A stretch of 64,000 nt of DNA. It comes from Schmidtea polychroa (Eukaryota). Location of the stretch: positions 107,362,397 through 107,426,396 of the forward strand of contig CM097887.1 of NCBI GenBank assembly GCA_044892525.1, given 5' to 3'. The translations under genes and the position numbers were made by a program. The notes beneath the pieces were generated by a model that was not told the origin of the DNA, did no database searches, and worked only from the letters and a program-made list of their open reading frames with translations. Of the stretch, positions 9,743-32,239 are shown piece by piece. Position 1 is the stretch's first letter. Every line of letters begins with the position of its first letter.

Positions 9743-9819
9743 CTATGAAATGCTCGGGGTTAACAGTAAAAACAGTAAACATTTTTCTTACCTATGAAAT
9801 GCTCGGGGTTAACAGTAAA
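9743..9819. promoter_or_regulatory. 28-bp direct repeat in the U3-side of the LTR (9743-9770, 9792-9819; also 35957-35984, 36006-36033); candidate enhancer
   Basis: ctatgaaatgctcggggttaacagtaaa occurs twice, 49 bp apart. Function is inferred from position only. Confidence 0.45.
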
Positions 9820-11105: not shown

Positions 11106-11145
11106 TCATTATGTTTATTTACAATTGGTTTTAATGACCCTTAAT

Positions 11146-13263: not shown

Positions 13264-14652
13264 TTATTCCGTTCTACCCTTCTCCTCTTTCCTCACGGTC
13301 ATCTTGATATATATGGTATCATTTCTCGCCATATCTTCTACTCTTTGTTGTGAGATGAACGTAGGTGCTCCTGTTGCTGATCCTTCTTCGTTGAGGGGCC
13401 TCTGGTAAGCTATTTGATTCCCCGTTGTTTTGAAGCTTTGCTCATGTATACTTTGGTTGTTCATCAGAGTAATATCGATTTTTGCCTGGAACGGCCATTC
13501 TAATATTTCGTCGTATTCTCCTTTACATAACAGAAAGAAAATCGAAAAGTGCGTGTTTAATCCGGTTCCGTCCCCGTTGGGATATATCTTCATTTTCATT
13601 TTGTACCCATTTTTCCAAGAGTGGAATGTAGGACTTGTTATTCTTGTCTCTTCTCCGGTTTTTGCTTTTCGTATTCTTTCTTTTACTCCCGTTATTTTCC
13701 ATATGTAGGGTGCTGTTGGGGTTATCTCATTTAGATTTATTTCCCGTATTTTCTGATGTAGCTCCTTGGCCTGATTATTACTGATTTCTGTTCGGTTTAT
13801 TTGCATCTTTATGTTTGCTCGGGCTTCTTCGAACGCTTTCCTTTCTTCTAGTAGTTCTTTGACTAACACTTTCAACGATGTTATCTCTATCTCCATTTGT
13901 TTTACTTTCTCTTCGCTTTCTTGTAACGCAGTCGACCACATTTCTGCGTGAGTTGAAGCATTTTCTACTAAATGATGTGGTAACTCACCTCGGTGTAGTA
14001 ATTTCTGACAACCCCATCTACCTAGTACACATGTCATTCTTTTCTTTTCGCATTCCCTTAGATGCTGTGCCACCTTCATTATTTCCCCTTGGTTACATCC
14101 GTTTGGGCATTCCCCACTGAACTCCGCACATACTCTCTCCTCTTGGACATTGTGATGTTTGAGGGTGAGATTTATCCACGTATCTATTTCTCCACAGTGT
14201 TCACATCTTTCTAATCTCTCTTCACACTGCTTTTGATGTTCTTTTTCTTCGCTTGCTCGAATGGTTTTATGGCACCTTTCACACTGGCCAATTCTGTACA
14301 TACATTCTCCCATATGTTGTACTACCTTCCATATTACTCCTTTCCATTCGCATGGGGCATTTTTGCATCCCAGGTTGGTGTTTAACATGTCTTTCACTGC
14401 GGCTTTATCCTCGTTAGTGTCTTCTAAACTCGATATTAGTGTCTCTTTACACACCGGGCACCTCTGTGGTCTATTTTTTATTGCTTCACTGATACATTCT
14501 TTACATACTCTGCATCCACATTGCGTTTGGTGAGGTTCCTTTAACAACCCTTCACATATTCCGCACATAACATGTTTGTGTATTCTGATCGTTGTAGATT
14601 TTCGGACTTGCTCGACAATCTCCCTGAACTCTTCTCTTTGTCGTTTATCCAT
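13264..14652 (-). CDS. Full-length intronless TRAF (RING, TRAF zinc fingers, coiled coil, MATH/TRAF-C)
   Basis: RING CGICEGLLKEPHQTQCGCRVCKEC...CPVC; repeated CxxGC/HxxxC fingers; MATH core GYKMKMKIYPNGDGTGLNTHFSIFFLLCKGEYDEILEWPF resembling TRAF2/3/5. Confidence 0.95.
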   Translation of the reverse strand: MDKRQREEFREIVEQVRKSTTIRIHKHVMCGICEGLLKEPHQTQCGCRVCKECISEAIKNRPQRCPVCKETLISSLEDTNEDKAAVKDMLNTNLGCKNAPCEWKGVIWKVVQHMGECMYRIGQCERCHKTIRASEEKEHQKQCEERLERCEHCGEIDTWINLTLKHHNVQEERVCAEFSGECPNGCNQGEIMKVAQHLRECEKKRMTCVLGRWGCQKLLHRGELPHHLVENASTHAEMWSTALQESEEKVKQMEIEITSLKVLVKELLEERKAFEEARANIKMQINRTEISNNQAKELHQKIREINLNEITPTAPYIWKITGVKERIRKAKTGEETRITSPTFHSWKNGYKMKMKIYPNGDGTGLNTHFSIFFLLCKGEYDEILEWPFQAKIDITLMNNQSIHEQSFKTTGNQIAYQRPLNEEGSATGAPTFISQQRVEDMARNDTIYIKMTVRKEEKGRTE

Positions 14653-14737
14653 TCTATAATTATATGTACAAATAGTTCTTATCGATACAGGTTCGATATT
14701 TTATTTACAATTATTTACATTTTAAGCTAGGTTTGGT

Positions 14738-15097: not shown

Positions 15098-15257
15098 TCC
15101 TAATTTATATACACTTTTCAACTCTTATGTAAATTTAATTTTATTTTATGATTCCCGTTATTGTATAATATTGATACCGCGCTTATATAAAGATATAGTA
15201 CTGTTATATACATAAGATATACTTACTTTTTACAATTATATACAGTCATATTCCTTT

Positions 15258-16260
15258 CTATATACGTGAGTTTGGAGGGCGCTGAGCGTTCCAGGCCTCC
15301 ACCCACTGTTCTTGTTTGATATCACTTGGTCGTTTCACTCGATGTTGGAAATTTCTGATTCGAGTCATCTCTAGTTCTCCGCGATGTCGTTTATCCTTAA
15401 TTATTTTTATTGTTCCCCCCGTTATGATTAGGAATGCCCCTGTTATTATTATCCCACTGATCCACATCATCTGCTTCACGCTTATACTCTCTGGTTTTTC
15501 CTTGTTGGTTAATGTTGATATCGCTTCTGTACTTCTCTCGTTTCCTCTTTTGCCATTTCCTTTCATCATTTCCCGTATTCTTGCTATTTCCTCGTTCATA
15601 CCCTCCTTTGCCATCTTTTGTATTTTTTCCATCTCTTCCTCCGAAACATAGTTGTCCTGAGCTTCCTCACCAGTTTTCTTGTGCTTTCCTCCTTCGTTCT
15701 TTTCGTCGTGGTTTTTTCTTTTCCTTCCTCTTTTCCCCGGGTATCGTCGGCATTCTCTTTTTGATTCATTCCTCCAGATACAAACCGTGTATTCTTTCGG
15801 CGGCTGCTGCTGCGTCACATATTGATGGCATCTCTCACCTGGTCCTAATCTTGAAATACAGACTTTGTGCTCTTTTCTAGGTTGGATCTGCGTTATTACT
15901 ACTTCACCACCTTTTCCTAGGTGTACCTCTTTTCCTTTGACGTTCGTTATTCTCTTCCCGTCTCGATTTCGGTATGCTTCTTGTATTCTTACTTCTGTTA
16001 TTGGTTCTGTGTCCTCATTTATCAGTACTAATTTCTGATACGCTCTAGACATGCATCTTCCTAGTATGCACTTTTCCTTTAAGTCCCATTCTTCCTTTAA
16101 ATCCCACTGCTGCTCTTGTGCTTGCTTTCTCTTTTCTTGTTTTAGTTCGTCCTCTTTGCTATCTTGATTCTCCGCTTCTTTGGTTTCTTTTATCGTTCTC
16201 GTCCCTCCCTGAGCTGTTACTAACTCTATCATGGTAAGCATAATTATCATTAATATCATA
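15258..16260 (-). other. Polyprotein C-terminal type I membrane protein module
   Basis: Signal-like MILMIIMLTMIELVTA-Q (about 16205-16260), Cys-containing beta-rich ectodomain, TM MMWISGIIITGAFLIITGGTIKII (about 15403-15475), basic tail. Confidence 0.65.
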
Positions 16261-19200
16261 TTTGTCTCTATTTCTTTGTTAGTGAAAGGTAGGCATACCC
16301 TCTGTTTTCCGTTATTCGATTTTTCCTCCTCTTTGGTCTTGGTTCTCGGGCTGTTTCCCTCTCTTTTCGTATCCGAATCCTTGTTTTCTGGTTTACCCTC
16401 CTCCGGTTCTCTTTTCTCTTTATCCTCCTTTCGGCCTTTTCCGTTATTGTCATCGTGTTTATCTCCCTCGCTGTCATTTAAAATGTCGTCCTCGACATTT
16501 ATATCGTTCAATAATCTGCGATATGCTGTTAGCACTCTGTTTCTTGCTAATTTTGCTTCGAATTCAAACTCTTTTCTACCCGTTGCAGCATGTCTCTTTC
16601 TATTCCATTCTTTAACTAACTCTCTCAATTGCATACGACGATGTTTCCCAATTCGTTGTTGTTCGTTCTGATTTTGCGTGAATTTTAGGTCTTCTCTATT
16701 TAATACTACTAAAATAATTTTCGGCGTCCCCCCCTTAGTTAGGGTATTCTTTACCATCGCATTTTCTCCGTTTTCGTAGAATTCGTTTACATTTATCGCA
16801 TATTTATTATTTGGTGGTACTCTCCAGGTTAATAATAATTTCATTGCTTCTAGATTTTTCCGTACCGCATTCCATTGAAACTGAGATGTGTTTTTGCACA
16901 TATTTTCGACTTCTTCTTTTGTCGCATTTTTGCAAATAAATCTGATCATTTCTAAGTTTGGCTGTATGGTTGCCCAGTCCAAGGTGGAATTTCCTTCATT
17001 GGACTTTTCGTCTAGTTTCGATCCTGATTGATGTAGGATGTGGAGTGTTTTTGGGTGTATTTTCGTTATAGCTGCATACATCATGGCGGTTTCACCTTGT
17101 TCATTTTTCGTGTTGGTTTCCTCGCCCATCTCTCCAAGGATTCTCACGATCGTTATTGCTCTATTTTCTTTCGCTGCTAGTATTGCTTGTTGTAGGGGTG
17201 TTCTGGAATCCTTCGTTACCATCGTAAATGCTCGAGGCAAGAAGGTTTTGATTTTCCCGATATCTAAACCCGTGGTTTGATCTCTTGCGTATGTGTGTAC
17301 GGCCTTTATTATTTTTGACAATATTATTTCGTCTGGCAGCTCTAGCATTTCCTCAAAGAACACTTCTTTTGCCTTGCGTATTATTGCCTCTTGATCTATA
17401 CTCATTGATTTGGTTTCGATGACGTTGTTTGTGACCGTTTGGTTCGTTGTTGACTTTGATTCCCTGGATTTCTCATACCTTATTTTCGTTTTCTTTCCGT
17501 TTGGATTATTGATTCGTTCCTCTGCTGTAAGTATTTGGATAATATCCAGGTAATTCTCGCGGATGTTATTCATTGTGTCCATCATATATAACACACTTAC
17601 CGTTTCCCAATATTTATTCCGTACTTGGTTAGTAAATTGGAATAGGGATTTTTCGAATGTGTCGATTCGCTTTTTTGCTAACTGTTCGTCTTTATGATTT
17701 GTGAATTTTATCCCTCGTTCTAGTAATTGATTCGGGATTTCGAATAACTGATGTCCTTTCATAGCTTCTCTCATCAGCGTGTTCTCTCCTCTCGTGAACG
17801 CTTCGTTTACGTTGATCATATAATCGTTTCGAATTGGATCTCTCCATGTGATTAATATTCCGGTAATTGTCGTCAGTTTTTCTTTGATCGCCGTTAACAA
17901 TCCATCATACATGTTTCCGACTTCCCGATTGTCCTCATATGATAGTAGTTCCATCAATGACGTGAACGCCTCGGTACTTCTCCCTTCGATAGCATGATGT
18001 AGAGCGTTTTTCCGCTCGTGGTCTTGTGTAGTTATTTTCGATCCGGTATCGAGTAATGCGGTTATAATGTCTTTGGTTTTGCCTCTGTTTGCGGCTATCA
18101 TTAATGGTGTGTAACCTTGGTTGTTTGTTTGTTCTGTTGATCGCTTGCAGTCGTGAAATGCTTCTATTGTTTCTAGTATTTGCTCGTTGTTACCTACTTT
18201 CATGAGTTTGTGTAATGGTGTGTCTCCGTAATGATCTGTTATTGTAAATAATATTGGCCATTGGCTTTTGACTACTCGCAATAATGGGTGTGTCCTTTCT
18301 CTATTTGCATAGTTCTCGATCATCGTCAATAATCCTCCTAATATTTCGAAATCTAATCGATCTTTTGCCCATCCAGGTATTCTAATTTTTACCTCTTTTA
18401 CAATCTTTTCCGCTTCTGATGGTTGGATACCTAATCGTCCAGTGATCGGTTCCGCGAGTTGTTGCATCATGTTCATTCGGTAGGTTTGCGAACGTGTGGT
18501 TAATGTACGGCCTTCTGGTTGACTAGTAGCTGTTTTTGGAATTGATTTGCATCGTGCCACGTTTACGTATATTGGTCTGGTAAAGGGGTTATTTACCAAT
18601 TTCACTCTTACATTAGTTTCGCCTACGAATAAGATCTCATATGGTCCTTTTCCGTTGCGTTGTAACTTTTTTGTGGTTCCTGGAATTAATTCCGGGGTTT
18701 CTATCATTACCCAATCACCTGTTTGGAACGTATGTTGCTTCACGTTTTTCTTTCGATCGTGTAAATCTTTATAACTTTCCTGGTAGAACTTGATATTTAA
18801 TCCCGCAGTTTCCCAAATTTCTTGCATTCTTTCCTTGAATTTCGTAACATAATCATCGATCTCCATATACTGCGATATCGGTGGTTGGTATTCCAGGTCC
18901 ATTGGCATGTTACATTCTCTTCCGTACATTAATTTGAATGGGCTCATTTTCGTTGATGCGTGAATCGACATTCTGTACGCCATAAGACATAGGTTTATAT
19001 ATTCGTCCCAATCTCGTTGGTGACGGTCAACGTAGTTTGATAACATTTGTATAAGTGTTCCATTAAATCTTTCCGTCATCCCATTGGTTTGAGGGTGGTA
19101 TGGAGATGTTCTTAGTTTTGCTATTTTGAAGTAATTTGTTACTTCGCTCATTATCTCACTCATAAAATTAGTTCCCTGATCGGTTAAGATTTGTTTTGGT

Positions 19201-22200
19201 GTTCCATATCGGCAACATATCTCTTCTACCAAAATTTTTGCGATTGTTTTAGCTTTTTGGTCTGGCATCGCGAATGCTTCTGGAAATTTCGTAAGAAAGT
19301 CTGTGATCACCAGAATGTAAACGTTTCCTTTATCTGACTCTGGTAGTGGACCAACTACGTCCATGGATATCATTGTCATTGGTTCTATTGGTACTGGCAT
19401 TGGCGTTAAAGGTGCTTTCCATTTCGATCCAGTATTCTTCCTGGTTGCACAAGTTAGACAATTTTTTACCCATTCGGTTACATCTTCAGTTAACGTAGGC
19501 CAAAAATATTTCTGTTTCATTCTTGCTAACGTCTTTTTCGATGACATATGTCCTCCCAATCTCCCATCGTGATATTGCGTTAGTAACTCTTTTCGTCGGT
19601 TTTCCGGTATACACATTAATCGTTTTTCCCCATCCATTATCAGCAACCAATCTTTCTCTATAATATATCGGTGTCGGTGTTTATCCATATGTTCTTTTAA
19701 TTTTTGGTCTTTCGCATATACCTCTGTCTTTCCGGTTTTTACATAATCGATAATTTGTTTTAATTCCGCGTCCTCTTGTTGGTCCTTTCGTAATTGACAG
19801 AAATCCAAATCTTCCGCTACTATTAAGCATATGCGTTGCATTTCGGAATCCACCAAATCTGGGAAAATAAATCTTGACATACAATCGGCGTTGGCATTTG
19901 CTCTTCCCGCTTTGAATTTTATAAATGGGGAGTATTCTTGCAATTGCATGGCCCATCGCATCAGTCTACTGGACGCTTCTTTATGTTGCCCTAACCACAC
20001 TAATGGTTGATGATCCGTGGTTATGCATATCTCATGTCCCCATAGTAAATATCGGAAGTGTTTGATAGCTTGTATTATAGCCAATGCTTCTCGTTCTGTT
20101 ACCGAATAGTTCTTTTCGTGCTTTTTGAATGTTCGACTGTAATACCCGATTACTCTCTCTTTTCCCTCATCGTCTAATTGTCCCAGAATCGCGCCTGCCG
20201 CGTACCCGCTTGCATCCGTTGCCAATAGAAATGGCTTCTTAAAATCTGGGTGTACGAGGATAGGTGCTTCGATTAGTTTATCTCTCAGCGTTTCGAACGC
20301 CTGTTGTTGTTCTTTTTCCCAAATGAACGAAATATCCTTCTTTACTAATTCCTGGATTGGTTTTGCAATTCCTGCATAATTTTTGATAAATTTGCGATAG
20401 TATCCGCATAATCCTAGAAATTCCTGCACTTGGGTGACCGTTTTCGGTGCGGGACATGTTTTTATTTTCTCAATGTTTCTTGGATCTGGCTCCTTTCCTT
20501 TAGCTGACACTATGTGTCCTAAAAACGTGACTTTTTCCTTTGCCCAATCGCATTTTGATGGTTTGAGTTTGAGTTTCCACTGTCTTAATCTAATAAATAC
20601 GTTTCGGATATCTTCCAGATGTTGTTCAAATGTCGCTGAATAGATTAGTAAATCATCAATATATACCATACATTGTTTGATTCCATGGGTGACAAAGTTC
20701 ATACACCGTTGAAATGATGCTGGTGCGTTGGTCAGTCCAAATGGCATTTTTCTGAATTGATATAGATCTCGTCCCAACGTGAAAGCTGTTTTCTCTTTGT
20801 CCTCATCTTTGACTTTAATCTGCCAGTATCCACTTTTTAGATCTAGAGAAGTAAAATATGCTGCCCCTTGCAACATCAATAACATCTCATTGATGTCCGG
20901 CAATGGATAGGTATCTCTCTTGGTCACTGCGTTTAACTTCCGATAATCGATACAGAATCGTTGGGTGCCATCTTTCTTTTTTACCATGACCACTGGGAAT
21001 TGCCAGGGTGAGCAACTTGGTTCGATTACTTTTGCGTCTAGCATCTTTTGTACTTCTGCTTCGGCTATTTCTTTTTGCATTTCTGCTAGCTTGTATGGTC
21101 TTAATGCAATTGGAGTTTCATCTATGAGGGGTATTGCATGTAGGGTAACATCGCATGTACCCAAGTCTAAGTCTGAGATGGCGAATATATCTTTATATTC
21201 TACCAACAATCGGTGTAATTTTTTCTTTTCATCATTCGTCAACAACATACTATCTATTGTCCATAATTCATCATCTTTGATCATCTCGTTGGTCACTTTC
21301 GGTAATTCTATGTCCATCATTGGGGTCAATCTTCCCAATTTTTCGTTCTCATAAATGATTTTGTCTTCCTCTTCGAAATTCGTGATGTTGAGCGGTATCA
21401 CTCCTTCTTGGTTTATTGTGATTATTTCTCTTGCGAGTGGTAATTCTCGTCGCTTTTCGAATGACTTGCTTGGTTCAAAGATAACTTCTCCTTCCATACC
21501 CGTATCCACTTTTATCTGACAAATCATCTGTGATTTTGCTGGTACTATTATTTTTTCTGGACATCTGATGACTGCATTCATTTTGCATATTCTACCGGTT
21601 TTGTCTTTTAAACACATAGTTGTTAAGTCTATTACGACTTCTTTTAATAATTCTGGCATCAGGTCCGTTCCGATTATGCATGGTACGCTAAGTTTTGGTA
21701 TTACTGCCAAATACGTTTCAATTTCGTTGTCCTGGTATCTCAATGTAGTCCACCATCTTCCGACCACGTCCACTGTTTCTTTACTACATGCTATGATGTG
21801 AATTGTTGTTGATTCGATATCCTTCCAGTGTTTACTGGGGATTTGATTAATCGCTATCGCTGATACATTAGCTCCGGTGTCTATCATAGCATTGGTTTCT
21901 TTACCATTGATTTGAATCATAACTGTTACTGCTGGACCTCCAGGTAAACTCATCGCTGCTATTGTTCTTACGTCATCTGCTTGATCTACACTTTTGGTAC
22001 GTCGTGTTGGCATATAATGCATACCGGGTTGACTCGGTAATTGCGGATACATATTTTGTGTCATGGTCAAAGCTGTTTGTGGTCCCACGATATCCGGTGG
22101 TATATAGCTTCCATTGGCGATCCAGGTGTTTGTCTTTTCCTTTTCCCAATATGGTGCCGTTTCCATTGGTTTTTCGTTTGGGTTTCTGTTTGGATAAAGA

Positions 22201-25200
22201 CATTTATCGTTCCCGTTATCATCGTCGTCACTATCGCTGTTAGATGATTGGCTTCTAAATCGGTCCAAGAATTTTGGCTTATTCTTTTTCAATTGTCGTC
22301 TTGTTGCTTCATCGTACATTACTTTCCGGAATCGTCTGCCTACTTCCTCGTCGGTTCCTTTAATCTTTGTTAATATTTTAATCAATCGCTTTATCCGATG
22401 AATGTCTTTTGAGTGACCATGTAATACCATGGTTTTAGCTAAAAATGGTAAGAAGCCTACTATCATTTTCCAGTTAACTTTCTTTTCCCGCTTGTATATA
22501 TCGAAACAAGCTAACATTTGTGTTAGTATTACTCTGACTATCTGAATTATGAGTATGATCCCTAATATCCCGGCCATCATTTGTCCAAAAACTAAGAATC
22601 TTCCCCACATTGCTTTCATCATGTTTGACGTAGCTTGTTGAAAATGGTCTGGCGATAATAGCAGCTCGTAATTCGGGCCTGATTGATAATTTGTGCCCCC
22701 AGTTATTGTAACCATATTAGACAAAATGGATTCTCGTCTGGCTGGAAAGAGTACGTTAAGTCGTGCTGTTTCTAGATCTTCCGGGGAATACATACCACCG
22801 TTTGACACGTCTATAGGTTTGAAATCCAGCTCTGTGGCGAGTTCTATTAATCCAAATTTCTTGGGCTCCTCGGATATGGTTTTTCCCGGTAACATCATCC
22901 ATTTCCCATCGGGCCTTTCATATAAAGGTCCGTATGCATTAGAACAGTTAAAGAGATTTGGGTAGAAACCCACTGGATTCATAATTCTAGTGACTGGTTG
23001 GACGAATCGATTTTGTCCTTTATAACGGATTTCTAATTCATTTGCACATCTCTTTTCGGGTAGTATGGATTTTTCTGGCATTCGTGCATACGTCTTGGTA
23101 CACTGGTATGTGTACATCACTTCTCCTACCATTCTACCAAAGTGTCCATCTGGTAATGGGAGTGATGGCATCGTGTTATCTGGGTGCGTTATCGCAATAG
23201 CTAGCTTTGTTTTCAATATTTCTTTATTTAATGAACAATCGTTTTGTATTAGATCGTAATATACTTTTTGCAAGGTCGTTTGTCCGCGATGAAATAGAAA
23301 ATCCATTTTATTATTTGCATATAAGTATAGTTTTACGTCCTCCGTTGCTATCTTTCCCACTGCTCTATCGATTATTTGTCTCGACATATAGATACCTGCG
23401 TAATTGGTTTTATATACTATACTGTCACATTTGGTGGTTTCTTTCTCTTTGATAAATCTCATACCTAGATCTGGATCGTCTGTGATTAATGCTGTTGGTG
23501 TCTTCTGCGTTGAAAGTCTCTTTTCTCTGGGAGATGGTGGCATTGGTTTTCCATTTCGCATTCTCACTCTGTCGTTTCCATCCTCGTCGTTCTCGTTCTC
23601 ATATATTTCTCCTTTTACTTCATTGAACAAAGCACTTTTTAACAGTTGGAGTCGGCATTTTTGGGTATTAGCTTCATAGATTATAGTTGATACTCCTGTC
23701 CTGCATACGTTTTCTGTAGCTTTACACGCTGGGTTGGTCTTCATTTGGTAATTATTTGCGTCAAATTGCGCTTCGTATTCTTTTAATTCGACCGTGTAAG
23801 ACTCGATCACTACAACTCCCGATATTACCTCGCCTCGGATCGTATACGTACCTCCGTTACATGACCCATCTGATGATTTTACTTTTCCGGATACGTAAAC
23901 ACTTTCGGTTTTAATCATTCCAGTTTGTCCGTGAATTGTCACTCCGTTATGCATTTTTAGCGCTCCGGTTCTAAATAGCTCTTTACAATCCTCTCGTTGT
24001 ATTGATACGATTTCCTTATCCAGACCGGGTAGTATAAGAGTCGAATACGAATATTGTCCACAGTAATATGCGAGTACCTTTTTTGATACTACGCATTCCC
24101 TTGCTTGCGTTCTGATGAAATCTGATTCTTGATATACATGGTAAGTAACTTTTGTTCTCACGATGTCCAATTTGTTGGGTGAGGCTTGTCTGCATTCTTC
24201 TATGTCTCTCAATGAGTATTTATCTCTCATTATCATATTATCACAATCGTAGATGGTGAAGCCTGTTGCTCCACTTGTGCACAACATCCATATCATCATA
24301 GTCATCATTAACGAATTTATTGATGCTTTTCTGCTTGCGGGATCTTTCATCGGTAGTTCCCATTCTAGTTCATTTAACAGTTTTTTCAATCTAACTTGCA
24401 TCGACCTTTCTTGCTCATTTTTCCGTGGCGCTTGTATTAGTCTTTTCCATCCTCCTGCACGAATAATATGTGGTTCAATAGTATTCTCTATGATTGAAAC
24501 GGTCATTTCCACAGGATTTGCAAACTGTTTATTTGGTATTTTCCTCGCAGCTAGTCCCATCAAATTATACATCAAATACGTGATTACCACTAGGTGATGT
24601 TCGTCATCATTTGCATTTGTCGTGAGCTGCTCAATCACTCTCTTTGTTTCGTCCCAATCCGTTTTGGTGGTTTTCGTTTTCTCTTTGATTAACTTTGGGA
24701 TTATCCCCGAAATGGTGTGCCATAATTGTCTAGCTTCCGTACTGGCTACTTTCCGTTGCCACAAACGTCTAAGTTGTGGGTTTGTTATTATTAACATATC
24801 TTTTAACAATTCTCGTATCCATTTTTCTCCTCTTTCGATCGTTGGTTGGGCTTCCTTTAGATCCCATACTATCTTATCCAATTTTTCTAATCGAACTTGC
24901 CCTTGTTCTTGCTTTAATTGTTCTTTGGTTTTGAACTCAGATTTTTCTCCTTGTTTCTTAGGTCTTCCTTTTGCCCGTTTTTCCATCATCGTTCCGGCTT
25001 CTCTGGTATTTTCGTAATTCGGATTTCTTTCGTTATCCGTTCTGGGTAATGAGCTATCGTTATTTCTTAGCCACTCATTCCATTCGTCTATTATTTTGTC
25101 GGTTTGACTTTCTGGTGTTACTTTCGTTGGTTCTCTTTGCTTCTGGAATTGTTCATCCGTTTCGGTTTCCGTAGTATTGTCGATGATTTCTTTGATGTTC

Positions 25201-28200
25201 AGTTTCGTTGGTTGTTGATAACTCGTTGATGGCTGGTTATTAGTCCACATTTCGGCTCCTGTCGGCCATTTCACTAATAGCGGTGATCTTTCTCCTGGTT
25301 CATCGTCACTATCTTCCAGGATTATCTCTTCAACTTCTTCAGTTTCATTAGATTTACTTGGTGCTTTGTTCGGACTTGGAGTACTCAAACTGCCTTTTGT
25401 TGGTTTAATAATTTTACTTTTCCTTTTTAACGGTTTCCCCAACGTTTCTGCCATCGTTAATACATTTGTCTCTTCCAATCTCATGGGTGTTATCCCGACG
25501 TCTGCATTATCGTCTAGTGATTTTCCGAACAGTTGCAGATGGAATGGAGTTTCATATGCTAATTTCTTTTTTAATTCTCTAATTTTTGTTGTTGGATGCA
25601 CCTCTAGTTCCTCGATGCTCTTGTCCGGATACTTGATTCGGATGTGATACCTCTCCTGGGTGTCTTGTGCCCATTCCTGATTTCTCCATTTTCGAATAAT
25701 TTGTTCTAGCTGTTCTGGATACCATTCATTATATTGCCGGTATTCCTCTATTGCCTTTGCCATTCCTCTCAGATTGTGGATATTCTCTGATGTTTTTAAG
25801 ATGATATTAGCCAACGCTACTACCTGGCGTTTTTGATTTTTCGCTCCCATTGCTAAAATATCGCCTAATTGTTTATATCTTTCTTTCTCTTCTCGTTCTC
25901 TTGCTTCCGCCGCTTCCTCGCCGTCCATATCAGCATATTCCCGTTCCTTTTTCCTCATTGCATGAATATGTCTCGCTTCATTTTCGCTTTCTGATGTGAC
26001 ATCCGTCTCGCTTTCGTCATCTGATGTCTGTCCCCTTGCTTCCTCTTCATATTCTGGGGGTTCCTCTTCTTCTTCCTCCGATTCACTTTCTGTCTCACCG
26101 ATGTCTGTTTCCACGAAGGTTCCTTTCCGGATTTCCCATTCCTTACTTTCTGCATTCCACACTCTTTCCCATGGGGTTCGTCTGCAGGATCTGGTGCTTA
26201 ATTTCGTGATTTTTCCTTGTAGTTCTTTTTCTTTTAACCATTGTTGGTGGATTTCAATTAGTTCTATAGATTTTCGATATAACGTTTTCATCCGGTCTCG
26301 TATTTCTTTTTGATAGGTTACATCTCTTGTTCGAAATTCATCCATTGGTACTATCCTGATTATCTGGTGATTGTCCCACATACCCATTTCGCTTAACGAG
26401 GTGTCGTCCTCCGCTCGTAATATTATCTTATCGTACATCATGACTACATCATCCACCATACCATCACTACTTTCGCTACGTACCTTTTCCGTTATCTCTT
26501 GGTTTATTTTTGATACCAAGTCATCTACTGTACTCTGATTGCTCATTTTTATTCGTCGTTTTTCTTCGTTCGGTAACCATATGGTTATTTCCAACCTCTG
26601 TGGCTGGGTTTCTTTTAACCTTCCATATTTGTGGATCAAATTTATGGTTCTCCAATCACTCATTCGGAGCATTTCTGTATCTCGCAACCGGCTCATTAGT
26701 TCGTACATGGCTGGGGCTCGTCTGGTGATGAGTAAATCCCAGTTGTCTTCTACTTGTTCTTGAATTTGTTTGATCAGCTTATCCAGGTTTCGTCTCAGAG
26801 TACATTGTTTTATTTGTTCTAATTTCAATTTGATATTAAAATCATATTCTGCCTTGGCATCTTTAGCCCAATCGTAAAAATTGGCTGGTTGTTTTTCTTT
26901 ATGCAACTTCAGTATTTGCGTTTCTCCTGGCCATATTAGTGCATCTACTAAGTGCATATCTGGTTTGATCTGTTCTCCTTGGTATTGATACAGATATTCT
27001 TTCTTTCTCGAACTTCCCAAATGTTCTCGTATCCAATCGAAAAGTTCGTCGGTGACTGTATTTTTTATCCACATTCTTTCAAGTCCTCTACTCGTTCCAA
27101 TTTTTATTACATACCGCGTGGTATCGGCCTGCTTCATTTTTTCCATATAATTTTTTATAATTGATTTTTCCTCGTTTGGTATTAGATCTTTCTCGTTTCT
27201 TTCCAATTTCATCACTTTTTGCACGAATCGCCTGAATGGTATTACGTCAATGAACTCTTGGTTCCTCACTACTACTGGGAGTATTTCCGCTACTTGTTTT
27301 ATCGCTTCCTCCTTCCCTTTTCTCAACTTCATTTCGATATCCTCGTCTTCACTTTCGCTGGTTATCTCGCTTTCGCCTTCTTCCTCTTTGATTTCCCCTT
27401 TTGGAGGTTCGCTTATTTCATTCAGCTGTAGTATTTCTCCACCCAAACTACTTACATAGTCTTCTTCCTCGTCTGATGATGCTACATCTTTTGTCCTTTT
27501 CATCATATTGATTTGCAAGTTTCTCATCCTTGGTACTCTCTTTAGTTTCTTTCTTTCGAATCTCGTTGTTTCTTCTGATTCTAATTCCTGTAGCATTTGG
27601 TGGTTTAGTTGACTGGTTTGTTCCTTGCTCTTGTTATTTTCATCTTCTGTCTCGGCTTTCGCTTTATTATGTTCTTTTTCGATTTTATCTTTTATCTTTT
27701 TCCAGAATATTTTCTGAATTCTCTGGTTTCCTTTTAAAATCGTGGTTGAATTCTCTGTTTTCATTTCCGTTGTTATTTCTTTTACCTTTTCTGGTTCAGT
27801 CATGGGTACTACCCTTGGGCTTTTCCCGTAATTGTAGCAATACTGGCTCTTCATGTCTTTTACTAACTTCATCATATTTATTCGCAATGGTTGTTCTTGT
27901 CGTTGTTGGTTGCGTTCTTGTTTTATCCTCTCTTCCTCGGCCTGTAGCCTTTGCCATTCTTGTACATGTTGATGCACTTCATAATTGTTGAGATTTTCGG
28001 TACTCCTCATCATACGTATATTCTGGGTTTGTTGTGGTGCTGATTCTTGTCTTGGTCTCATCATTTGTTGCATCATCTGTTTCATCTGCGAAATTTCCTG
28101 CATAACGTTCATTTGTTTTCCTTCGTTAGGGTTACTTTGTCGTTGCGGATTCGCTATATAATTATTGTTTCGCTGTGGTGGTCGTTGTTGTTGGCCCCTT

Positions 28201-29111
28201 TCTCGGCAATCTCTGGAGATGTGACCTGGCTGACCACAGTTAAAACAGCCTCGCAATTGGCATACATTTTCGGTATGTCCACGCCGTCCGCAACGATTAC
28301 AATTTGAATTTCTATAACAATCTCTGTCCCAGTGTCCTGATTTACCGCATGTTCGGCACTGCTTGTTATCGTTCATATTTCGCCGATTATTGAAATTGTT
28401 CTCATTATTCGGGTTGTTACGATTACCATTATTCCCGTTTGATCGTCCTTGTGGTGGTTTGAAAATTTGGTGCGCTCCTGGTATAAATTGATTCATTTTC
28501 GGTTCTTGATTGTTGTTATCTCCGTTATCTGCTTTCGCTATTGCTGTCGCTATCCTTCCCTCCTCTTGCATAATATTCATTTGAGCTGGAAGGTGGAGCT
28601 CGCATCTTGTAGCCCAATCTATGGCTTCCTCTAATGTTTTGCACATTTGACAACCTACTGAGGCTCTTACTTCTTCTCGGCGTAATCCCTCTATGAAATA
28701 ACCGATCAGATTTTCTTCGGGTAATTTTCCATTCATTGCTTTCTTTGCTAATCTCCGCAATTCACTGGCATATAATGTTATCGATTCGTTTGCTCTTTGT
28801 TTCCTATTTGCTAGTTCGCCCAACGCCTGGTTGATTGGCTTACTGGCTCCGAAGGTTTTCTTCAGGAATGTTTTAATATCTTCCCACTTTTCTAATTTCG
28901 TGTCTCTCTCTTTAGCTTCTAAATATACCTCTAATGCACTATCGCACAAAAACAACGGCATCCTTTTACTAATTGCTTCGGGTGTCCATCCACACACAGT
29001 GATATAAACTTCAAAATTAGTTATGAACGTTGCTAGCTTGTTTGCATTTCCGTTGAACGGTTCTCCTCTGAACTTCTCTTTATACTCGTCGGTTTTTACG
29101 ACATTCGTCAT
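15258..29111 (-). CDS. 4,617-aa Gag-UBL-Bcl2like-Env-Pol-ankyrin-membrane polyprotein
   Basis: Single ORF without stops. Gag capsid, three CCHC knuckles, protease DTG, RT YIDD, RNase H TDAS, integrase HHCC/DDE/GPY are all in frame. Confidence 0.97.
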   Translation of the reverse strand: MTNVVKTDEYKEKFRGEPFNGNANKLATFITNFEVYITVCGWTPEAISKRMPLFLCDSALEVYLEAKERDTKLEKWEDIKTFLKKTFGASKPINQALGELANRKQRANESITLYASELRRLAKKAMNGKLPEENLIGYFIEGLRREEVRASVGCQMCKTLEEAIDWATRCELHLPAQMNIMQEEGRIATAIAKADNGDNNNQEPKMNQFIPGAHQIFKPPQGRSNGNNGNRNNPNNENNFNNRRNMNDNKQCRTCGKSGHWDRDCYRNSNCNRCGRRGHTENVCQLRGCFNCGQPGHISRDCRERGQQQRPPQRNNNYIANPQRQSNPNEGKQMNVMQEISQMKQMMQQMMRPRQESAPQQTQNIRMMRSTENLNNYEVHQHVQEWQRLQAEEERIKQERNQQRQEQPLRINMMKLVKDMKSQYCYNYGKSPRVVPMTEPEKVKEITTEMKTENSTTILKGNQRIQKIFWKKIKDKIEKEHNKAKAETEDENNKSKEQTSQLNHQMLQELESEETTRFERKKLKRVPRMRNLQINMMKRTKDVASSDEEEDYVSSLGGEILQLNEISEPPKGEIKEEEGESEITSESEDEDIEMKLRKGKEEAIKQVAEILPVVVRNQEFIDVIPFRRFVQKVMKLERNEKDLIPNEEKSIIKNYMEKMKQADTTRYVIKIGTSRGLERMWIKNTVTDELFDWIREHLGSSRKKEYLYQYQGEQIKPDMHLVDALIWPGETQILKLHKEKQPANFYDWAKDAKAEYDFNIKLKLEQIKQCTLRRNLDKLIKQIQEQVEDNWDLLITRRAPAMYELMSRLRDTEMLRMSDWRTINLIHKYGRLKETQPQRLEITIWLPNEEKRRIKMSNQSTVDDLVSKINQEITEKVRSESSDGMVDDVVMMYDKIILRAEDDTSLSEMGMWDNHQIIRIVPMDEFRTRDVTYQKEIRDRMKTLYRKSIELIEIHQQWLKEKELQGKITKLSTRSCRRTPWERVWNAESKEWEIRKGTFVETDIGETESESEEEEEEPPEYEEEARGQTSDDESETDVTSESENEARHIHAMRKKEREYADMDGEEAAEAREREEKERYKQLGDILAMGAKNQKRQVVALANIILKTSENIHNLRGMAKAIEEYRQYNEWYPEQLEQIIRKWRNQEWAQDTQERYHIRIKYPDKSIEELEVHPTTKIRELKKKLAYETPFHLQLFGKSLDDNADVGITPMRLEETNVLTMAETLGKPLKRKSKIIKPTKGSLSTPSPNKAPSKSNETEEVEEIILEDSDDEPGERSPLLVKWPTGAEMWTNNQPSTSYQQPTKLNIKEIIDNTTETETDEQFQKQREPTKVTPESQTDKIIDEWNEWLRNNDSSLPRTDNERNPNYENTREAGTMMEKRAKGRPKKQGEKSEFKTKEQLKQEQGQVRLEKLDKIVWDLKEAQPTIERGEKWIRELLKDMLIITNPQLRRLWQRKVASTEARQLWHTISGIIPKLIKEKTKTTKTDWDETKRVIEQLTTNANDDEHHLVVITYLMYNLMGLAARKIPNKQFANPVEMTVSIIENTIEPHIIRAGGWKRLIQAPRKNEQERSMQVRLKKLLNELEWELPMKDPASRKASINSLMMTMMIWMLCTSGATGFTIYDCDNMIMRDKYSLRDIEECRQASPNKLDIVRTKVTYHVYQESDFIRTQARECVVSKKVLAYYCGQYSYSTLILPGLDKEIVSIQREDCKELFRTGALKMHNGVTIHGQTGMIKTESVYVSGKVKSSDGSCNGGTYTIRGEVISGVVVIESYTVELKEYEAQFDANNYQMKTNPACKATENVCRTGVSTIIYEANTQKCRLQLLKSALFNEVKGEIYENENDEDGNDRVRMRNGKPMPPSPREKRLSTQKTPTALITDDPDLGMRFIKEKETTKCDSIVYKTNYAGIYMSRQIIDRAVGKIATEDVKLYLYANNKMDFLFHRGQTTLQKVYYDLIQNDCSLNKEILKTKLAIAITHPDNTMPSLPLPDGHFGRMVGEVMYTYQCTKTYARMPEKSILPEKRCANELEIRYKGQNRFVQPVTRIMNPVGFYPNLFNCSNAYGPLYERPDGKWMMLPGKTISEEPKKFGLIELATELDFKPIDVSNGGMYSPEDLETARLNVLFPARRESILSNMVTITGGTNYQSGPNYELLLSPDHFQQATSNMMKAMWGRFLVFGQMMAGILGIILIIQIVRVILTQMLACFDIYKREKKVNWKMIVGFLPFLAKTMVLHGHSKDIHRIKRLIKILTKIKGTDEEVGRRFRKVMYDEATRRQLKKNKPKFLDRFRSQSSNSDSDDDDNGNDKCLYPNRNPNEKPMETAPYWEKEKTNTWIANGSYIPPDIVGPQTALTMTQNMYPQLPSQPGMHYMPTRRTKSVDQADDVRTIAAMSLPGGPAVTVMIQINGKETNAMIDTGANVSAIAINQIPSKHWKDIESTTIHIIACSKETVDVVGRWWTTLRYQDNEIETYLAVIPKLSVPCIIGTDLMPELLKEVVIDLTTMCLKDKTGRICKMNAVIRCPEKIIVPAKSQMICQIKVDTGMEGEVIFEPSKSFEKRRELPLAREIITINQEGVIPLNITNFEEEDKIIYENEKLGRLTPMMDIELPKVTNEMIKDDELWTIDSMLLTNDEKKKLHRLLVEYKDIFAISDLDLGTCDVTLHAIPLIDETPIALRPYKLAEMQKEIAEAEVQKMLDAKVIEPSCSPWQFPVVMVKKKDGTQRFCIDYRKLNAVTKRDTYPLPDINEMLLMLQGAAYFTSLDLKSGYWQIKVKDEDKEKTAFTLGRDLYQFRKMPFGLTNAPASFQRCMNFVTHGIKQCMVYIDDLLIYSATFEQHLEDIRNVFIRLRQWKLKLKPSKCDWAKEKVTFLGHIVSAKGKEPDPRNIEKIKTCPAPKTVTQVQEFLGLCGYYRKFIKNYAGIAKPIQELVKKDISFIWEKEQQQAFETLRDKLIEAPILVHPDFKKPFLLATDASGYAAGAILGQLDDEGKERVIGYYSRTFKKHEKNYSVTEREALAIIQAIKHFRYLLWGHEICITTDHQPLVWLGQHKEASSRLMRWAMQLQEYSPFIKFKAGRANANADCMSRFIFPDLVDSEMQRICLIVAEDLDFCQLRKDQQEDAELKQIIDYVKTGKTEVYAKDQKLKEHMDKHRHRYIIEKDWLLIMDGEKRLMCIPENRRKELLTQYHDGRLGGHMSSKKTLARMKQKYFWPTLTEDVTEWVKNCLTCATRKNTGSKWKAPLTPMPVPIEPMTMISMDVVGPLPESDKGNVYILVITDFLTKFPEAFAMPDQKAKTIAKILVEEICCRYGTPKQILTDQGTNFMSEIMSEVTNYFKIAKLRTSPYHPQTNGMTERFNGTLIQMLSNYVDRHQRDWDEYINLCLMAYRMSIHASTKMSPFKLMYGRECNMPMDLEYQPPISQYMEIDDYVTKFKERMQEIWETAGLNIKFYQESYKDLHDRKKNVKQHTFQTGDWVMIETPELIPGTTKKLQRNGKGPYEILFVGETNVRVKLVNNPFTRPIYVNVARCKSIPKTATSQPEGRTLTTRSQTYRMNMMQQLAEPITGRLGIQPSEAEKIVKEVKIRIPGWAKDRLDFEILGGLLTMIENYANRERTHPLLRVVKSQWPILFTITDHYGDTPLHKLMKVGNNEQILETIEAFHDCKRSTEQTNNQGYTPLMIAANRGKTKDIITALLDTGSKITTQDHERKNALHHAIEGRSTEAFTSLMELLSYEDNREVGNMYDGLLTAIKEKLTTITGILITWRDPIRNDYMINVNEAFTRGENTLMREAMKGHQLFEIPNQLLERGIKFTNHKDEQLAKKRIDTFEKSLFQFTNQVRNKYWETVSVLYMMDTMNNIRENYLDIIQILTAEERINNPNGKKTKIRYEKSRESKSTTNQTVTNNVIETKSMSIDQEAIIRKAKEVFFEEMLELPDEIILSKIIKAVHTYARDQTTGLDIGKIKTFLPRAFTMVTKDSRTPLQQAILAAKENRAITIVRILGEMGEETNTKNEQGETAMMYAAITKIHPKTLHILHQSGSKLDEKSNEGNSTLDWATIQPNLEMIRFICKNATKEEVENMCKNTSQFQWNAVRKNLEAMKLLLTWRVPPNNKYAINVNEFYENGENAMVKNTLTKGGTPKIILVVLNREDLKFTQNQNEQQRIGKHRRMQLRELVKEWNRKRHAATGRKEFEFEAKLARNRVLTAYRRLLNDINVEDDILNDSEGDKHDDNNGKGRKEDKEKREPEEGKPENKDSDTKREGNSPRTKTKEEEKSNNGKQRVCLPFTNKEIETNMILMIIMLTMIELVTAQGGTRTIKETKEAENQDSKEDELKQEKRKQAQEQQWDLKEEWDLKEKCILGRCMSRAYQKLVLINEDTEPITEVRIQEAYRNRDGKRITNVKGKEVHLGKGGEVVITQIQPRKEHKVCISRLGPGERCHQYVTQQQPPKEYTVCIWRNESKRECRRYPGKRGRKRKNHDEKNEGGKHKKTGEEAQDNYVSEEEMEKIQKMAKEGMNEEIARIREMMKGNGKRGNERSTEAISTLTNKEKPESISVKQMMWISGIIITGAFLIITGGTIKIIKDKRHRGELEMTRIRNFQHRVKRPSDIKQEQWVEAWNAQRPPNSRI
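16670..18240 (-). other. Two tandem ankyrin-repeat modules downstream of integrase
   Basis: GDTPLH, GYTPLMIAA, KNALHHAI (about 17700-18240) and RTPLQQAI, GETAMMYAA, GNSTLDWAT (about 16670-17220). Both modules end in a similar WRxPxxNxYxINVNExxxxGEN block. Confidence 0.88.
18560..19580 (-). other. Integrase domain (HHCC, DDE core, GPY/F)
   Basis: HDGRLGGH...NCLTC; ISMDVVGPLP; ILTDQGTNF; NGMTERFNGTL; GKGPYEI. Confidence 0.97.
19880..21210 (-). other. Reverse transcriptase and RNase H domains
   Basis: RFCIDYRKLN, LDLKSGYWQI, MPFGLTNAPASFQR, YIDD (20652-20663), FLLATDASG, YSVTEREALA, TDHQPL. Confidence 0.97.
21640..21935 (-). other. Aspartic protease domain
   Basis: AMIDTGANVSAI (DTG at 21873-21881) and IIGTDLM. 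Confidence 0.95.
22410..24260 (-). other. Envelope glycoprotein domain, chuvirus-G-like / class III fusion-protein-like
   Basis: Follows a signal-like segment (about 24262-24325) and starts FTIYDC. Cys pattern ECVV..YYCG..DC..GSC..C..C; REKR furin-type site at 23517-23528; GEVMYTYQC...RCANELEIRY...RFVQPVTRI...NCS block; TM MAGILGIILIIQIVRVIL. Confidence 0.8.
24430..24895 (-). other. Candidate Bcl-2-like helical domain
   Basis: IENTIEPHIIRAGGWKRLIQ resembles the BH2 motif (Bcl-xL HLEPWIQENGGWDTFV), preceded at BH1-like spacing by TKRVIEQLTTNANDDEHHLVVITYLMYNL; canonical NWGR is absent. Confidence 0.55.
25450..27120 (-). other. Three ubiquitin-like domains (about 26900-27120, 26350-26600, 25450-25655)
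   Basis: Third: HIRIKYPDKSIEELEVHPTTKIRELKKKL...LFGKSLDD, versus ubiquitin LEVEPSDTIENVKAKI...FAGKQLED. Second: ITIWLPNEEKRRIKMSNQSTVDDLVSKI. First (weaker): YQGEQIKPDMHLVDALIWPGETQIL. Confidence 0.65.
28206..29111 (-). other. Gag capsid-like domain plus three CCHC zinc knuckles (28206-28358)
   Basis: EPFNGNANKLATFITNFE...W...FIEGL; CRTCGKSGHWDRDC, CNRCGRRGHTENVC, CFNCGQPGHISRDC. Confidence 0.93.
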
Positions 29112-30420
29112 GATTGGTGTTCTAGGTTCGTCTGTTTCTTTTAAATTGTCTAACGATGTGACTAAACTTTGGGCTGATAATTCCTCGGTTGACGTTGCTA
29201 AACTATTAGTGATATCGGACAGACTTTCTCTACTTCGAGATCGACTAGGGGTATATCCGAGATTTTCTTGGTCAAATATGGGTACTTGATTGGTTCTTCT
29301 GGATCCTTGTGATATTCCTCTTTGATGTTTAATGGATCGTCCTCTTTTGAGTTGTTGTAATTCGTCTCCTGAAAATAATACGTCTCCTGGCTTACTAGAA
29401 GATCTAAGATTGGGTTTATCCGTGATTCCTTTCTTACGCTTCTTGGTAATTAGCGGCTATTGAATCGGACGCGTTCGGTTCTGATTGTGTTTCCTTCGAT
29501 AAATATTCTGTATGAATCTGCTACTGAGATCCTGAGGAGATTTACTAATTCCTGGCAGATGGCTGCTAATACTTCTTCCGTTCTGGAGTCTTCCGGTTGC
29601 TGTGTCTCTCGGTGCGGGTTCTGAATGGATTTATCCTTGGTTGATTGTCGATTTTCTTCGAATTCCTTTTGTGCAGGTTCTGGATTGTCTTGGTTGGCTG
29701 GATTGGCTTGATATCTAAAATGAAAAAATGATCTCGTGTTGCATTTGCTTACACGACTTCATCATTCTTTCTACAACATTCAAAAACAGACACCTTTTAG
29801 GTTTCTGTTTGTGCTTCCCCTATCTTTTGTGAAATCCTGTCTGCGGTTTATAATATCCCATCAGCCCGTATTTTCCGTCGATTTTAAATTATCTATATGG
29901 GGTAGTAACAATTATCTATAAAGTCGTAATAATTATCTATTCGTTATCAATTATAGTAAAAATAGGTCGTTGTCGGTCTCTGCTTATTACCCCCCTTTCA
30001 TTTTCCTAATCCTTTTGCGCTGTTGTCGCTATTTTACTTTTCATATTCACTATTATTACGCTCGGTTCTACTCTGGAACCAATAAAATGCATTTTCCCGG
30101 TTTAACAAAAAAAATATTCCGTAGAGTTTCTCTACTTCACTGGGATCCCTTTAATTAGTTAGTTACTTTCCTCTTTACTCATTATCATCATTTCATCTAT
30201 TCTTTATTTTCTATTGTCTCTTTAATTCGTTTCCTTCTTCCCTTTCCTTTTTCATTATAATCTTATTTTCTTTTCCACGAGCTCGTTTATTTCCTCTCTA
30301 AACTCGAATTTTCAAAATTACATTCAATTTGTTCTAGCTAGCTTTAATATTCCATATCACTAGTAATTTAAATATTATCTCATTGTAGCTTAACTGCTAT
30401 CTCTCGCTTTTCTAGGCCTT

Positions 30421-31436: not shown

Positions 31437-31922
31437 TCATTCGCCATAATAGACCATATGGGTCTCTTTTATTTCATATTTGCACATCGTGCATCTTTTT
31501 AGGTCTTTTACACACTCTTCACAGTGACTGAGGTGTCCACACGGCAAGAATAATACGCGAATAGGACGGAGTTTGCAGGCTATACAAGTTCGTAATTGGT
31601 TAACTTTTTCCTGTATTTTTTGTTCGATTGCATCTGGTATTGTATTTAGTGAGTCTTTTAGACGCTGGTAATCTAGATTTAATGTTGGGTGGTTCAATCT
31701 CTCTTGATACCACTGATATACGGTTTCGGGGTTTATTTTTCCATCTGGGCGACTTAGGCCTGTGGCTAATATCATATGATTAGGTACGACTGGTGTTTGT
31801 CCGATTGCTTGCAGTAATATCGCGTTGATTTTTTCTCTTTTATGCGTCAGTGTTGTTAGGGAGTCGTTTTCTATATCGATAAACTTGAGCAGTTGTTGCA
31901 TTTGGTTCGCGAATTCTGTCAT
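31437..31922 (-). CDS. 161-aa protein with C-terminal IAP-type C3HC4 RING finger, no BIR
   Basis: CIACKLRPIRVLFLPCGHLSHCEECVKDLKRCTMCKYEIKETHMVY (RING at 31482-31586) matches the IAP/MYLIP RING pattern; strong acceptor-like ttacttttccaacAG lies 2 nt before the ATG. Confidence 0.88.
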   Translation of the reverse strand: MTEFANQMQQLLKFIDIENDSLTTLTHKREKINAILLQAIGQTPVVPNHMILATGLSRPDGKINPETVYQWYQERLNHPTLNLDYQRLKDSLNTIPDAIEQKIQEKVNQLRTCIACKLRPIRVLFLPCGHLSHCEECVKDLKRCTMCKYEIKETHMVYYGE

Positions 31923-32239
31923 AGCTGTTGGAAAAGTAATGTTTTAATAATATGTAGTAAATTAATAGTTAATTCGTTAATTGGTTTCTTTAACCATTGC
32001 TAATTATTTAATTTGACTACTTTATCTCCTTTATTTATATATATCCTTAATTTTCCTATTATCTACATTTTGATTTTCTCTACTTAGTTCCTAATATAAT
32101 TTAATAATCAATAGTCAATTTGCATTCGTCAAGCAATGGTCGGTTGAAAACAGAAAATCGATGTGATAAATCCCTTTAATTTTGTATGAAAATCCCGGTG
32201 AATTTCGCATTCGTTAATAGAAATTTCGATCGATTGTAG

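What the first reader, a model, noticed from the sequence alone, without database searches (positions are those of the whole stretch)
24430..24895. Bcl-2-like domain immediately before the Env signal peptide
A helical region of about 150 aa ends in EPHIIRAGGW (24447-24476), matching BH2, with a degenerate BH1 lacking NWGR. About 40 residues later comes the hydrophobic segment that doubles as the Env signal. After signal peptidase cleavage the domain would keep a C-terminal membrane anchor, as cellular and viral Bcl-2 proteins do.
Basis: partly seen in the sequence, partly recalled or inferred. Interest (0 to 1): 0.72.

Follow-up and report, generated by a model that had tools for sequence, protein, structure and literature searches.

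The report
Bcl-2-like domain in giant planarian retroelement
A giant virus-like retrotransposon carries a real but much-diverged copy of the cell-death regulator Bcl-2 just in front of its envelope protein, where it likely helps keep the host cell alive; the domain and its position are already in print for these 'Burro' elements.

Summary
Real, but already known. The window holds a 30.4-kb env-bearing Ty3/gypsy element (4.16-kb LTRs; one 4,732-aa ORF, Gag-Ub-Bcl2-Env-Pol-ankyrin) of the planarian Burro type. Its BCL2-like motif and the env between BCL2 and protease are published (PMC6431247). This scan noted it three times before on other DNA of this genome. The domain (24845-24423) scores only E=0.09-0.11 on Pfam alone. 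However, nine more lineages in the genome keep it (GGW in 26 of 26 aligned rows), an element-only profile hits Bcl-xL/Bcl-2 (E=1e-5), and the model (pLDDT 79) matches only Bcl-2 proteins over its full length (Z about 8, tied with partial helical bundles). It is under purifying selection, like the whole ORF. The BH1 W-G-R residues are lost in all rows and the first BH2 Trp in this lineage, so canonical BH3 binding is doubtful. The hydrophobic segment 40 residues later looks like Env's internal signal peptide. It could tether the domain to the ER, but it is weakly hydrophobic, also occurs in a relative lacking Bcl-2, and is cut off by a stop in one outside relative. Function and anchoring are untested.

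The parts
32265..36424 (-). 5' LTR (4,160 bp, TG...CA)
   Evidence: one mismatch to the other LTR
6051..10210 (-). 3' LTR; element flanked by a 4-bp target duplication CTAT
15258..29456 (-). Single polyprotein ORF, 4,732 aa stop to stop, first Met at 29111: Gag-CCHCx3-Ub-like-Bcl2-signal-Env-TM-PR-RT-RH-IN-ankyrin
28677..28958 (-). Retrotrans_gag domain
   Evidence: PF03732 E=3.2e-9
25422..25655 (-). Ubiquitin-like stretch upstream of the Bcl-2 domain
   Evidence: PF00240 E=0.0038, below cut-off; a Ub/SUMO-like motif is reported at this place in Burro
24423..24845 (-). Bcl-2-like domain (aa 1538-1678)
24576..24638 (-). Degenerate BH1 (helix 4 to helix 5); positions of Bcl-2 W144/G145/R146 read D/E/H
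   Evidence: column mapping
24447..24476 (-). BH2-like motif EPHIIRAGGW; first BH2 Trp replaced by His, GGW kept
24327..24422 (-). 32-aa linker, predicted helix, 97% identical in two diverged copies of the family
24261..24326 (-). Internal signal-peptide-like segment (after basic RK; ends A-T-G before FTIYDC), likely Env signal and possible leftover anchor
   Evidence: cleavage site inferred by eye, no signal-peptide predictor was available
22608..24260 (-). Env ectodomain (Monjiviricetes-type fusion glycoprotein)
   Evidence: PF24664 E=2.5e-70
22494..22607 (-). Env transmembrane segment
   Evidence: KD 2.53
19092..21923 (-). Protease, RT, RNase H, integrase
   Evidence: coordinates
13264..14700 (-). 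Accessory TRAF-like ORF (RING, MATH)
   Evidence: PF21355 E=2e-27
31437..31943 (-). Accessory RING-finger ORF upstream of gag
   Evidence: PF13920 E=3.7e-11

Best explanation
The stretch is a diverged Bcl-2-family domain inside the polyprotein of a Burro-type env-carrying LTR retroelement, and it likely acts as a host-cell survival factor that would be held at the ER membrane, at least for a time, by the leftover Env signal peptide. Shown: Bcl-2 homology, conservation in ten lineages of this genome and one outside relative, purifying selection, and its position between a Ub-like stretch and a signal-like segment. Inferred: one capture of a Bcl-2 gene by an ancestor of these elements; signal peptidase cuts before F1733 and frees Env into the ER lumen; the cytosolic Gag-Ub-Bcl2 piece stays tethered; the element's own protease releases Bcl2-linker-signal; the domain dampens Bak/Bax-type or ER-stress death through a remodelled groove or another surface, since the canonical BH1 contacts are gone.
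For: Element-only profile against PDB sequences: 100 hits at E<=0.01, the 60 shown all Bcl-xL/Bcl-2, best 1.1e-5. 23 of 26 element rows match PF00452 at E<=1, best 3.4e-7. Model pLDDT 78.8, pTM 0.69, built from element rows only; all 40 Foldseek rows listed are Bcl-2-family (best E=0.031); VIA Z 8.5, rmsd 3.0 over 113 residues to Trichoplax Bcl-2L2; in the wide search the 6 of 50 rows that span residues 1-141 are all Bcl-2-family. GGW in 26 of 26 rows; lineages B, B2, C, D, D2 and F were found without asking for GGW. dN/dS 0.019 and 0.058 against two diverged copies. Small residue at -1 in 26 of 26 rows and A/S/T at -3 in 24 of 26. Element domains fall on one side of a branch, 91/91. Planarians have Bak/Bcl-2-based mitochondrial apoptosis (review passages). 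Internal signals that stay as anchors are standard in flavivirid polyproteins (review passages).
Against: No functional data. The column of Bcl-2 G145 is D or E in 26 of 26 rows, W144 is never W, R146 never R, and W188 is H or P in the 5 rows of this lineage; W144A, G145A/E, R146A and W188A are each listed as abolishing Bax binding in Bcl-2. No Foldseek E-value reaches 0.001, and Z about 8 ties with unrelated three-helix bundles. Selection is no stronger than on Gag, Env or the acidic linker, and dS is near saturation. The signal is weakly hydrophobic here, occurs without Bcl-2 in L173, and lies behind a stop in L172. RNAi of BURRO1 did not improve the smedwi-2 phenotype (passage), which is only indirectly relevant. 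The one-clade support is below the tool's 95/80 bar, with long branches.
Confidence: 0.5

Rival explanations
1. A Bcl-2 fold reused as a signalling decoy rather than an apoptosis inhibitor: like the poxviral Bcl-2-fold NF-kB/TLR antagonists (recalled, from no call), it would bind innate-immune or ubiquitin-pathway proteins, together with the element's TRAF-like, RING, Ub-like and ankyrin modules.
For: Loss of the BH1 W-G-R residues in all 26 rows; TRAF-MATH, RING and ankyrin domains in the same element; a review ties loss of the BH1 Gly to a non-functional groove or another function.
Against: BH2 is well kept. Host-type Bcl-2 loci in this genome also often lack the Gly: 2 of 8 distinct loci have NWGR and one has E there. 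Viral proteins without recognisable BH motifs (DPV022; F1L, abstract start) still bind Bak, Bax and Bim.
Confidence: 0.22
2. The hydrophobic segment is only Env's signal. Any tethering serves assembly, holding Gag at the membrane where Env matures as in flavivirid capsid precursors, and the remnant is then removed by signal peptide peptidase or the element's protease; the Bcl-2 domain works unanchored or as an assembly spacer.
For: Same Gag-signal-Env order without Bcl-2 in L173; GAG-ENV-POL elements are known from nematodes, bryozoans and flatworms; stop between domain and signal in L172; weak hydrophobic core with N, S and C residues; SPP trims such remnants in pesti- and hepaciviruses; GGW-to-YDC spacing varies from 45 to 73 aa between lineages.
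Against: L172 is one contig and its stop may be simple decay. In the ten lineages of this genome the aligned copies have domain and signal in one open frame (rows were chosen for open frames). The linker is 97% identical within the family.
Confidence: 0.25
3. A generic helical spacer whose GGW resembles BH2 by chance.
For: Single-sequence scores are not significant (Pfam E about 0.1; no Bcl-2 hit by phmmer against PDB; Atlas best 0.77, unnamed clusters); structure Z-scores are middling.
Against: Profile, leave-one-lineage-out and full-length structure matches all point to Bcl-2; 9 of 12 other Bcl-2-type exons from this genome score 10.8-31.6 bits on the element profile, against a best of 9.4 among 650 shuffles.
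Confidence: 0.03

Closest known systems
Burro/GYPSM1 giant gypsy-like LTR retroelements of planarians (Jurka 2007 and Grohme et al. 2018 as described in PMC6431247, section 7 read in full; the two originals were not seen)
   Same: About 30 kb with multi-kb LTRs; one ORF near 4,800 aa; Gag with three CCHC knuckles; Ub-like motif, then BCL2-like motif, then env, then PR-RT-RH-IN; ankyrin repeats; MATH/TRAF; hundreds of copies.
   Different: Here MATH is in a separate downstream ORF; no BIR or dUTPase Pfam match; ORF is 4,732 aa against 4,873 for Burro1/GYPSM1. Which named Burro this is could not be tested, as no reference sequence was at hand. The section read does not discuss BH motifs or the signal as an anchor.
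Cellular multi-motif Bcl-2 proteins (Bcl-xL, Bcl-2, Trichoplax Bcl-2L2; PF00452)
   Same: Helical bundle with BH2 GGW; profile E=1e-5; rmsd about 3 A over about 113 residues; hydrophobic segment downstream.
   Different: 7-10% structural identity in the best VIA rows; BH1 W-G-R lost; part of a polyprotein; the downstream segment has signal-peptide rather than tail-anchor anatomy.
Viral Bcl-2 homologues of dsDNA viruses (ASFV A179L, herpesviral vBcl-2, poxviral F1L/M11L/DPV022, lancelet adintovirus Bcl2)
   Same: A host death-regulator fold carried by a mobile element; top viral fold rows include such proteins (best E=0.35, not significant); some lack BH motifs yet bind Bak/Bim.
   Different: Those are stand-alone genes of DNA viruses; this one is in frame between Gag and Env in a reverse-transcribing element.
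GAG-ENV-POL errantiviruses with HSV/gB-type Env of Nematoda, Bryozoa and Platyhelminthes (PMC13524379, passages)
   Same: Gene order and an Env flanked by a signal or a second hydrophobic segment.
   Different: That paper's main text has no occurrence of 'Burro' or 'Bcl'.

Membership tests
Burro-type giant gypsy elements | About 30 kb with long LTRs, high copy number | tested here: met
   30,374 bp, 4,160-bp LTRs; 150 of 150 scored candidates (of 932) match at 94-100% identity
Burro-type giant gypsy elements | One ORF near 5,000 aa with Gag, Ub-like, BCL2-like, env, PR-RT-RH-IN, ankyrin in that order | tested here: met
Burro-type giant gypsy elements | MATH/TRAF module in ORF1 or an accessory ORF | tested here: met
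   accessory ORF 14700-13264, PF21355 E=2e-27
Burro-type giant gypsy elements | BIR and dUTPase-like motifs | tested here: inconclusive
   no Pfam match at E<=1 in the 9 proteins scanned; the published dUTPase call was by HHpred
Burro-type giant gypsy elements | Sequence identity to a named Burro-1 to -4 | not testable with these tools
   no reference sequence held; Grohme 2018 not held
Bcl-2 family (PF00452) | Sequence homology to the family | tested here: met
   by profile; 23 of 26 rows match PF00452, best E=3.4e-7. The window's own copy is below the Pfam cut-off (13.8 against 31.4 bits)
Bcl-2 family (PF00452) | Bcl-2 helical-bundle fold | tested here: inconclusive
   model pLDDT 79; only Bcl-2 proteins align over its full length, but Z 8.3-8.5 ties with generic bundles and the best Foldseek E is 0.031
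Bcl-2 family (PF00452) | BH2 motif W-x(4)-GGW | tested here: inconclusive
   GGW in 26 of 26 rows; first W in 21 of 26 but H in the window's copy
Canonical pro-survival Bcl-2 proteins | BH1 NWGR | tested here: not met
   W 0 of 26, G 0 of 26 (D or E), R 0 of 26
Canonical pro-survival Bcl-2 proteins | C-terminal tail anchor as the last element of the protein | tested here: inconclusive
   22 uncharged residues, KD19 1.27, signal-peptide anatomy, terminal only after cleavage
Canonical pro-survival Bcl-2 proteins | Binds BH3 motifs and blocks apoptosis | not testable with these tools

The most novel reading that the evidence does not exclude
A reverse-transcribing virus-like element gives one hydrophobic segment two jobs: it opens Env into the ER and then stays behind as the anchor of a vBcl-2 that has rebuilt its groove without W-G-R. 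That would be a functional retroelement-encoded death inhibitor, kept across at least ten lineages and shaping cell turnover in a regenerating animal.
Probability: 0.25. Interest if true: 0.65.

Novelty: already known. Interest (0 to 1): 0.3.

Why it matters
The existence and position of the domain are published, so the finding is not new. What this work adds is modest: structural support, conservation and selection across ten lineages plus one outside relative, a shared acidic residue at the BH1 Gly position, and a testable anchor idea. If the domain does block cell death, hundreds of near-intact copies of a PIWI-controlled element could alter apoptosis in planarian tissues, and a retroelement would be using a trick known from large DNA viruses.

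Tried and rejected
Single-sequence searches were blank or uninformative: phmmer against PDB (1 hit, MRPL17, E=1.2), three protein-collection searches (0 of 300, 0 of 3,384 and 0 of 7,992 candidates; limited by length classes, so weak evidence), ESM Atlas (best 0.77). The Ribosomal_L17 match (E about 0.05) rests on a short stretch, is seen in 4 of 26 rows and is rejected. The first fold, with linker and signal included, was poor (pLDDT 57; best Foldseek row Bcl-xL, E=0.12). The viral-contig scan with the Env alignment gave 0 of 124 candidates. Pattern scans for further lineages matched fewer places than their reversed-pattern controls and served only as leads; none of the 9 matches gave an element. 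No RNA holder was listed among public runs; contigs of 4 runs cover the region but cannot show expression or splicing. The tree could not name a donor: L042 scores best on the element profile (31.6 bits), but the element clade has no resolved sister. Grohme 2018 and Bender 2012 were not held; their figures or supplements may already discuss the BH motifs or the signal. Searches for a functional study of this domain (listings only) showed none.

Full report
Setting. The finding lies in a 4,732-aa minus-strand ORF (29456-15258) between two 4,160-bp LTRs (6051-10210, 32265-36424) that differ at one base, with a CTAT target duplication. Pfam gives Gag, CCHC knuckles, a Monjiviricetes-type fusion glycoprotein (E=2.5e-70), protease, RT, RNase H, integrase and ankyrins in one frame, plus separate TRAF-like and RING ORFs. 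The genome has 781 Mb, mostly in four large contigs; 150 of 150 scored candidates (of 932) match the region at 94-100% identity, and 19 of the first 30 rows have the full 4,732-aa frame. This anatomy matches the Burro elements of planarians, so the host is inferred to be a planarian. Section 7 of PMC6431247 (read in full) already lists a BCL2-like motif, a Ub/SUMO-like motif before it and env between BCL2 and protease. Three earlier notes of this scan on other DNA of the genome say the same (none near this place); they were read after my own reading was fixed.

Observation. EPHIIRAGGW is at 24476-24447. An uncharged 22-residue segment begins 40 residues after GGW and ends A-T-G before FTIYDC. 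Alone, the domain is not significant: PF00452 E=0.089-0.11, no Bcl-2 hit in PDB.

Relatives. Searches of the genome with PF00452, with the Env family and with one relative's domain gave six more lineages (B, B2, C, D, D2, F), chosen without asking for GGW. Pattern scans that did ask for GGW added G, H and B3. All have the domain, then a linker, then a hydrophobic segment and xxxYDC (GGW-to-YDC 45-73 aa). I aligned 26 copies with open frames over the region, from ten lineages, 14-21% identical to the window outside its own lineage; broken or redundant copies were left out. GGW is present in 26 of 26. 23 of 26 match PF00452 at E<=1. The element-only profile hits 100 PDB sequences at E<=0.01, the 60 shown all Bcl-xL or Bcl-2. 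A profile without the window's lineage finds aa 1565-1675 of the polyprotein and nothing else significant. Outside this genome, 3 of 220 metagenome candidates were Env relatives. L172 has Gag-Ub-Bcl2 (48 bits; hhalign 96.8%) and then a stop before the signal. L173 has Gag-signal-Env-Pol with no Bcl-2 match. L174 holds only Env pieces.

Structure. The trimmed domain, folded with element rows only, gave pLDDT 78.8 and seven helices. Foldseek lists only Bcl-2-family chains, best E=0.031, none at E<=0.001. VIA gives Z 8.5, rmsd 3.0 over 113 residues to Trichoplax Bcl-2L2. Against 48,161 representatives the top Z values (9.1, 8.4) are unrelated bundles that cover only about 75 residues; the 6 of 50 rows covering residues 1-141 are all Bcl-2-family. 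Structure alone is middling; with the profile evidence the assignment is secure.

Selection and origin. Against two diverged natural copies the domain has dN/dS 0.019 and 0.058; Env has 0.041 and 0.057, the acidic linker 0.035 and 0.055; dS is near saturation, so the ratios are rough. Between sister lineages 0.12-0.28 in 7 pairs, 0.51 in one distant pair, 2 pairs saturated. The domain is maintained, but no more than its neighbours. In a tree of 21 rows the 12 element domains fall on one side of a 91/91 branch, below the tool's bar and with long branches (the row named host_L031 was taken from the near-identical L034). One capture is allowed, not shown, and no donor is resolved.

Groove. Mapped through, the columns of Bcl-2 W144, G145 and R146 hold W in 0, G in 0 (D or E in all) and R in 0 of 26 rows; W188 is kept in 21 of 26 but is H in the window's copy. 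Each of these Bcl-2 mutants is tabulated as losing Bax binding (PMC6825947, passages), and a review reads loss of the Gly as a sign of a non-functional groove (PMC8998228, passages). Against over-reading this: only 2 of 8 distinct host-type Bcl-2 loci here have NWGR and one has E at that place, and DPV022 binds Bak, Bax and Bim without recognisable BH motifs (PMC11209288, passages).

Anchor. Taking the cut three residues before YDC (my assumption; no predictor was available), -1 is G/A/S/C in 26 of 26 rows and -3 is A/S/T in 24 of 26, after basic residues and a hydrophobic core: signal-peptide anatomy as described in PMC8310223 (passages). That review also says such internal signals remain as anchors, and that one step in pesti- and hepaciviruses is trimmed by signal peptide peptidase. 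The window's segment is the weakest of the ten lineages (KD19 1.15-1.29, others 1.59-2.50; Env TM 2.53). GAG-ENV-POL elements are known in several phyla (PMC13524379, passages). So the segment is Env's first. A leftover anchor would be at the ER and would hold the whole Gag-Ub-Bcl2 precursor until the element's protease cuts (inference).

Expression. BURRO1 RNA rises in differentiated tissues after smedwi-2 RNAi, and BURRO1 RNAi did not rescue the phenotype (PMC8532177, passages); whether the window's element is BURRO1 is not known.

Verdict. The feature is already in print: novelty 'already known', interest 0.3.

Noticed in passing
window 16265-15396 (-); L173 C-terminus: After the ankyrins the polyprotein has a second signal-like segment (aa 4398-4417), about 245 residues with 6 Cys, and a TM (aa 4662-4687): a likely second membrane protein. 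The distant element L173 ends the same way by eye; no clear Pfam match.
   Followed up: partly
L046-L060, L166-L168 (G000): Multi-copy stand-alone Bcl-2-like genes sit beside TBP-like ORFs, and in L168 also a Pox_A32 ATPase and a chromo ORF, suggesting Polinton/adintovirus-like elements (label recalled) that carry Bcl-2 too.
   Followed up: partly
L172:61-4266: A metagenome contig encodes Gag-Ub-Bcl2(GGW), then an in-frame TGA, then signal and Env; a single contig, so decay and programmed readthrough cannot be told apart.
   Followed up: partly
window 6047-6050 and 36425-37866: The element is inserted into the 5' part of a Tigger/pogo-like transposase ORF (label recalled), with a CTAT target duplication.
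   Followed up: yes
window 10437-15124 (-): Five accessory ORFs follow the polyprotein: a TRAF-like RING-MATH protein and four without a Pfam match over the cut-off, several rich in charged residues.
   Followed up: partly
window 6585-7346 and 32799-33560 (-): Each LTR holds an identical 253-aa ORF of unknown kind.
   Followed up: no
window 30409-30852: A 74-nt tandem array in the leader between the 5' LTR and gag.
   Followed up: no
window 54517-59083 (-): A second, small Ty3/gypsy-like element with 118-nt repeats and separate gag and pol ORFs.
   Followed up: no
G000:C4:89.9-90.8 Mb (L031-L037): Seven near-identical copies of an NWGR-containing Bcl-2 exon are clustered there.
   Followed up: no
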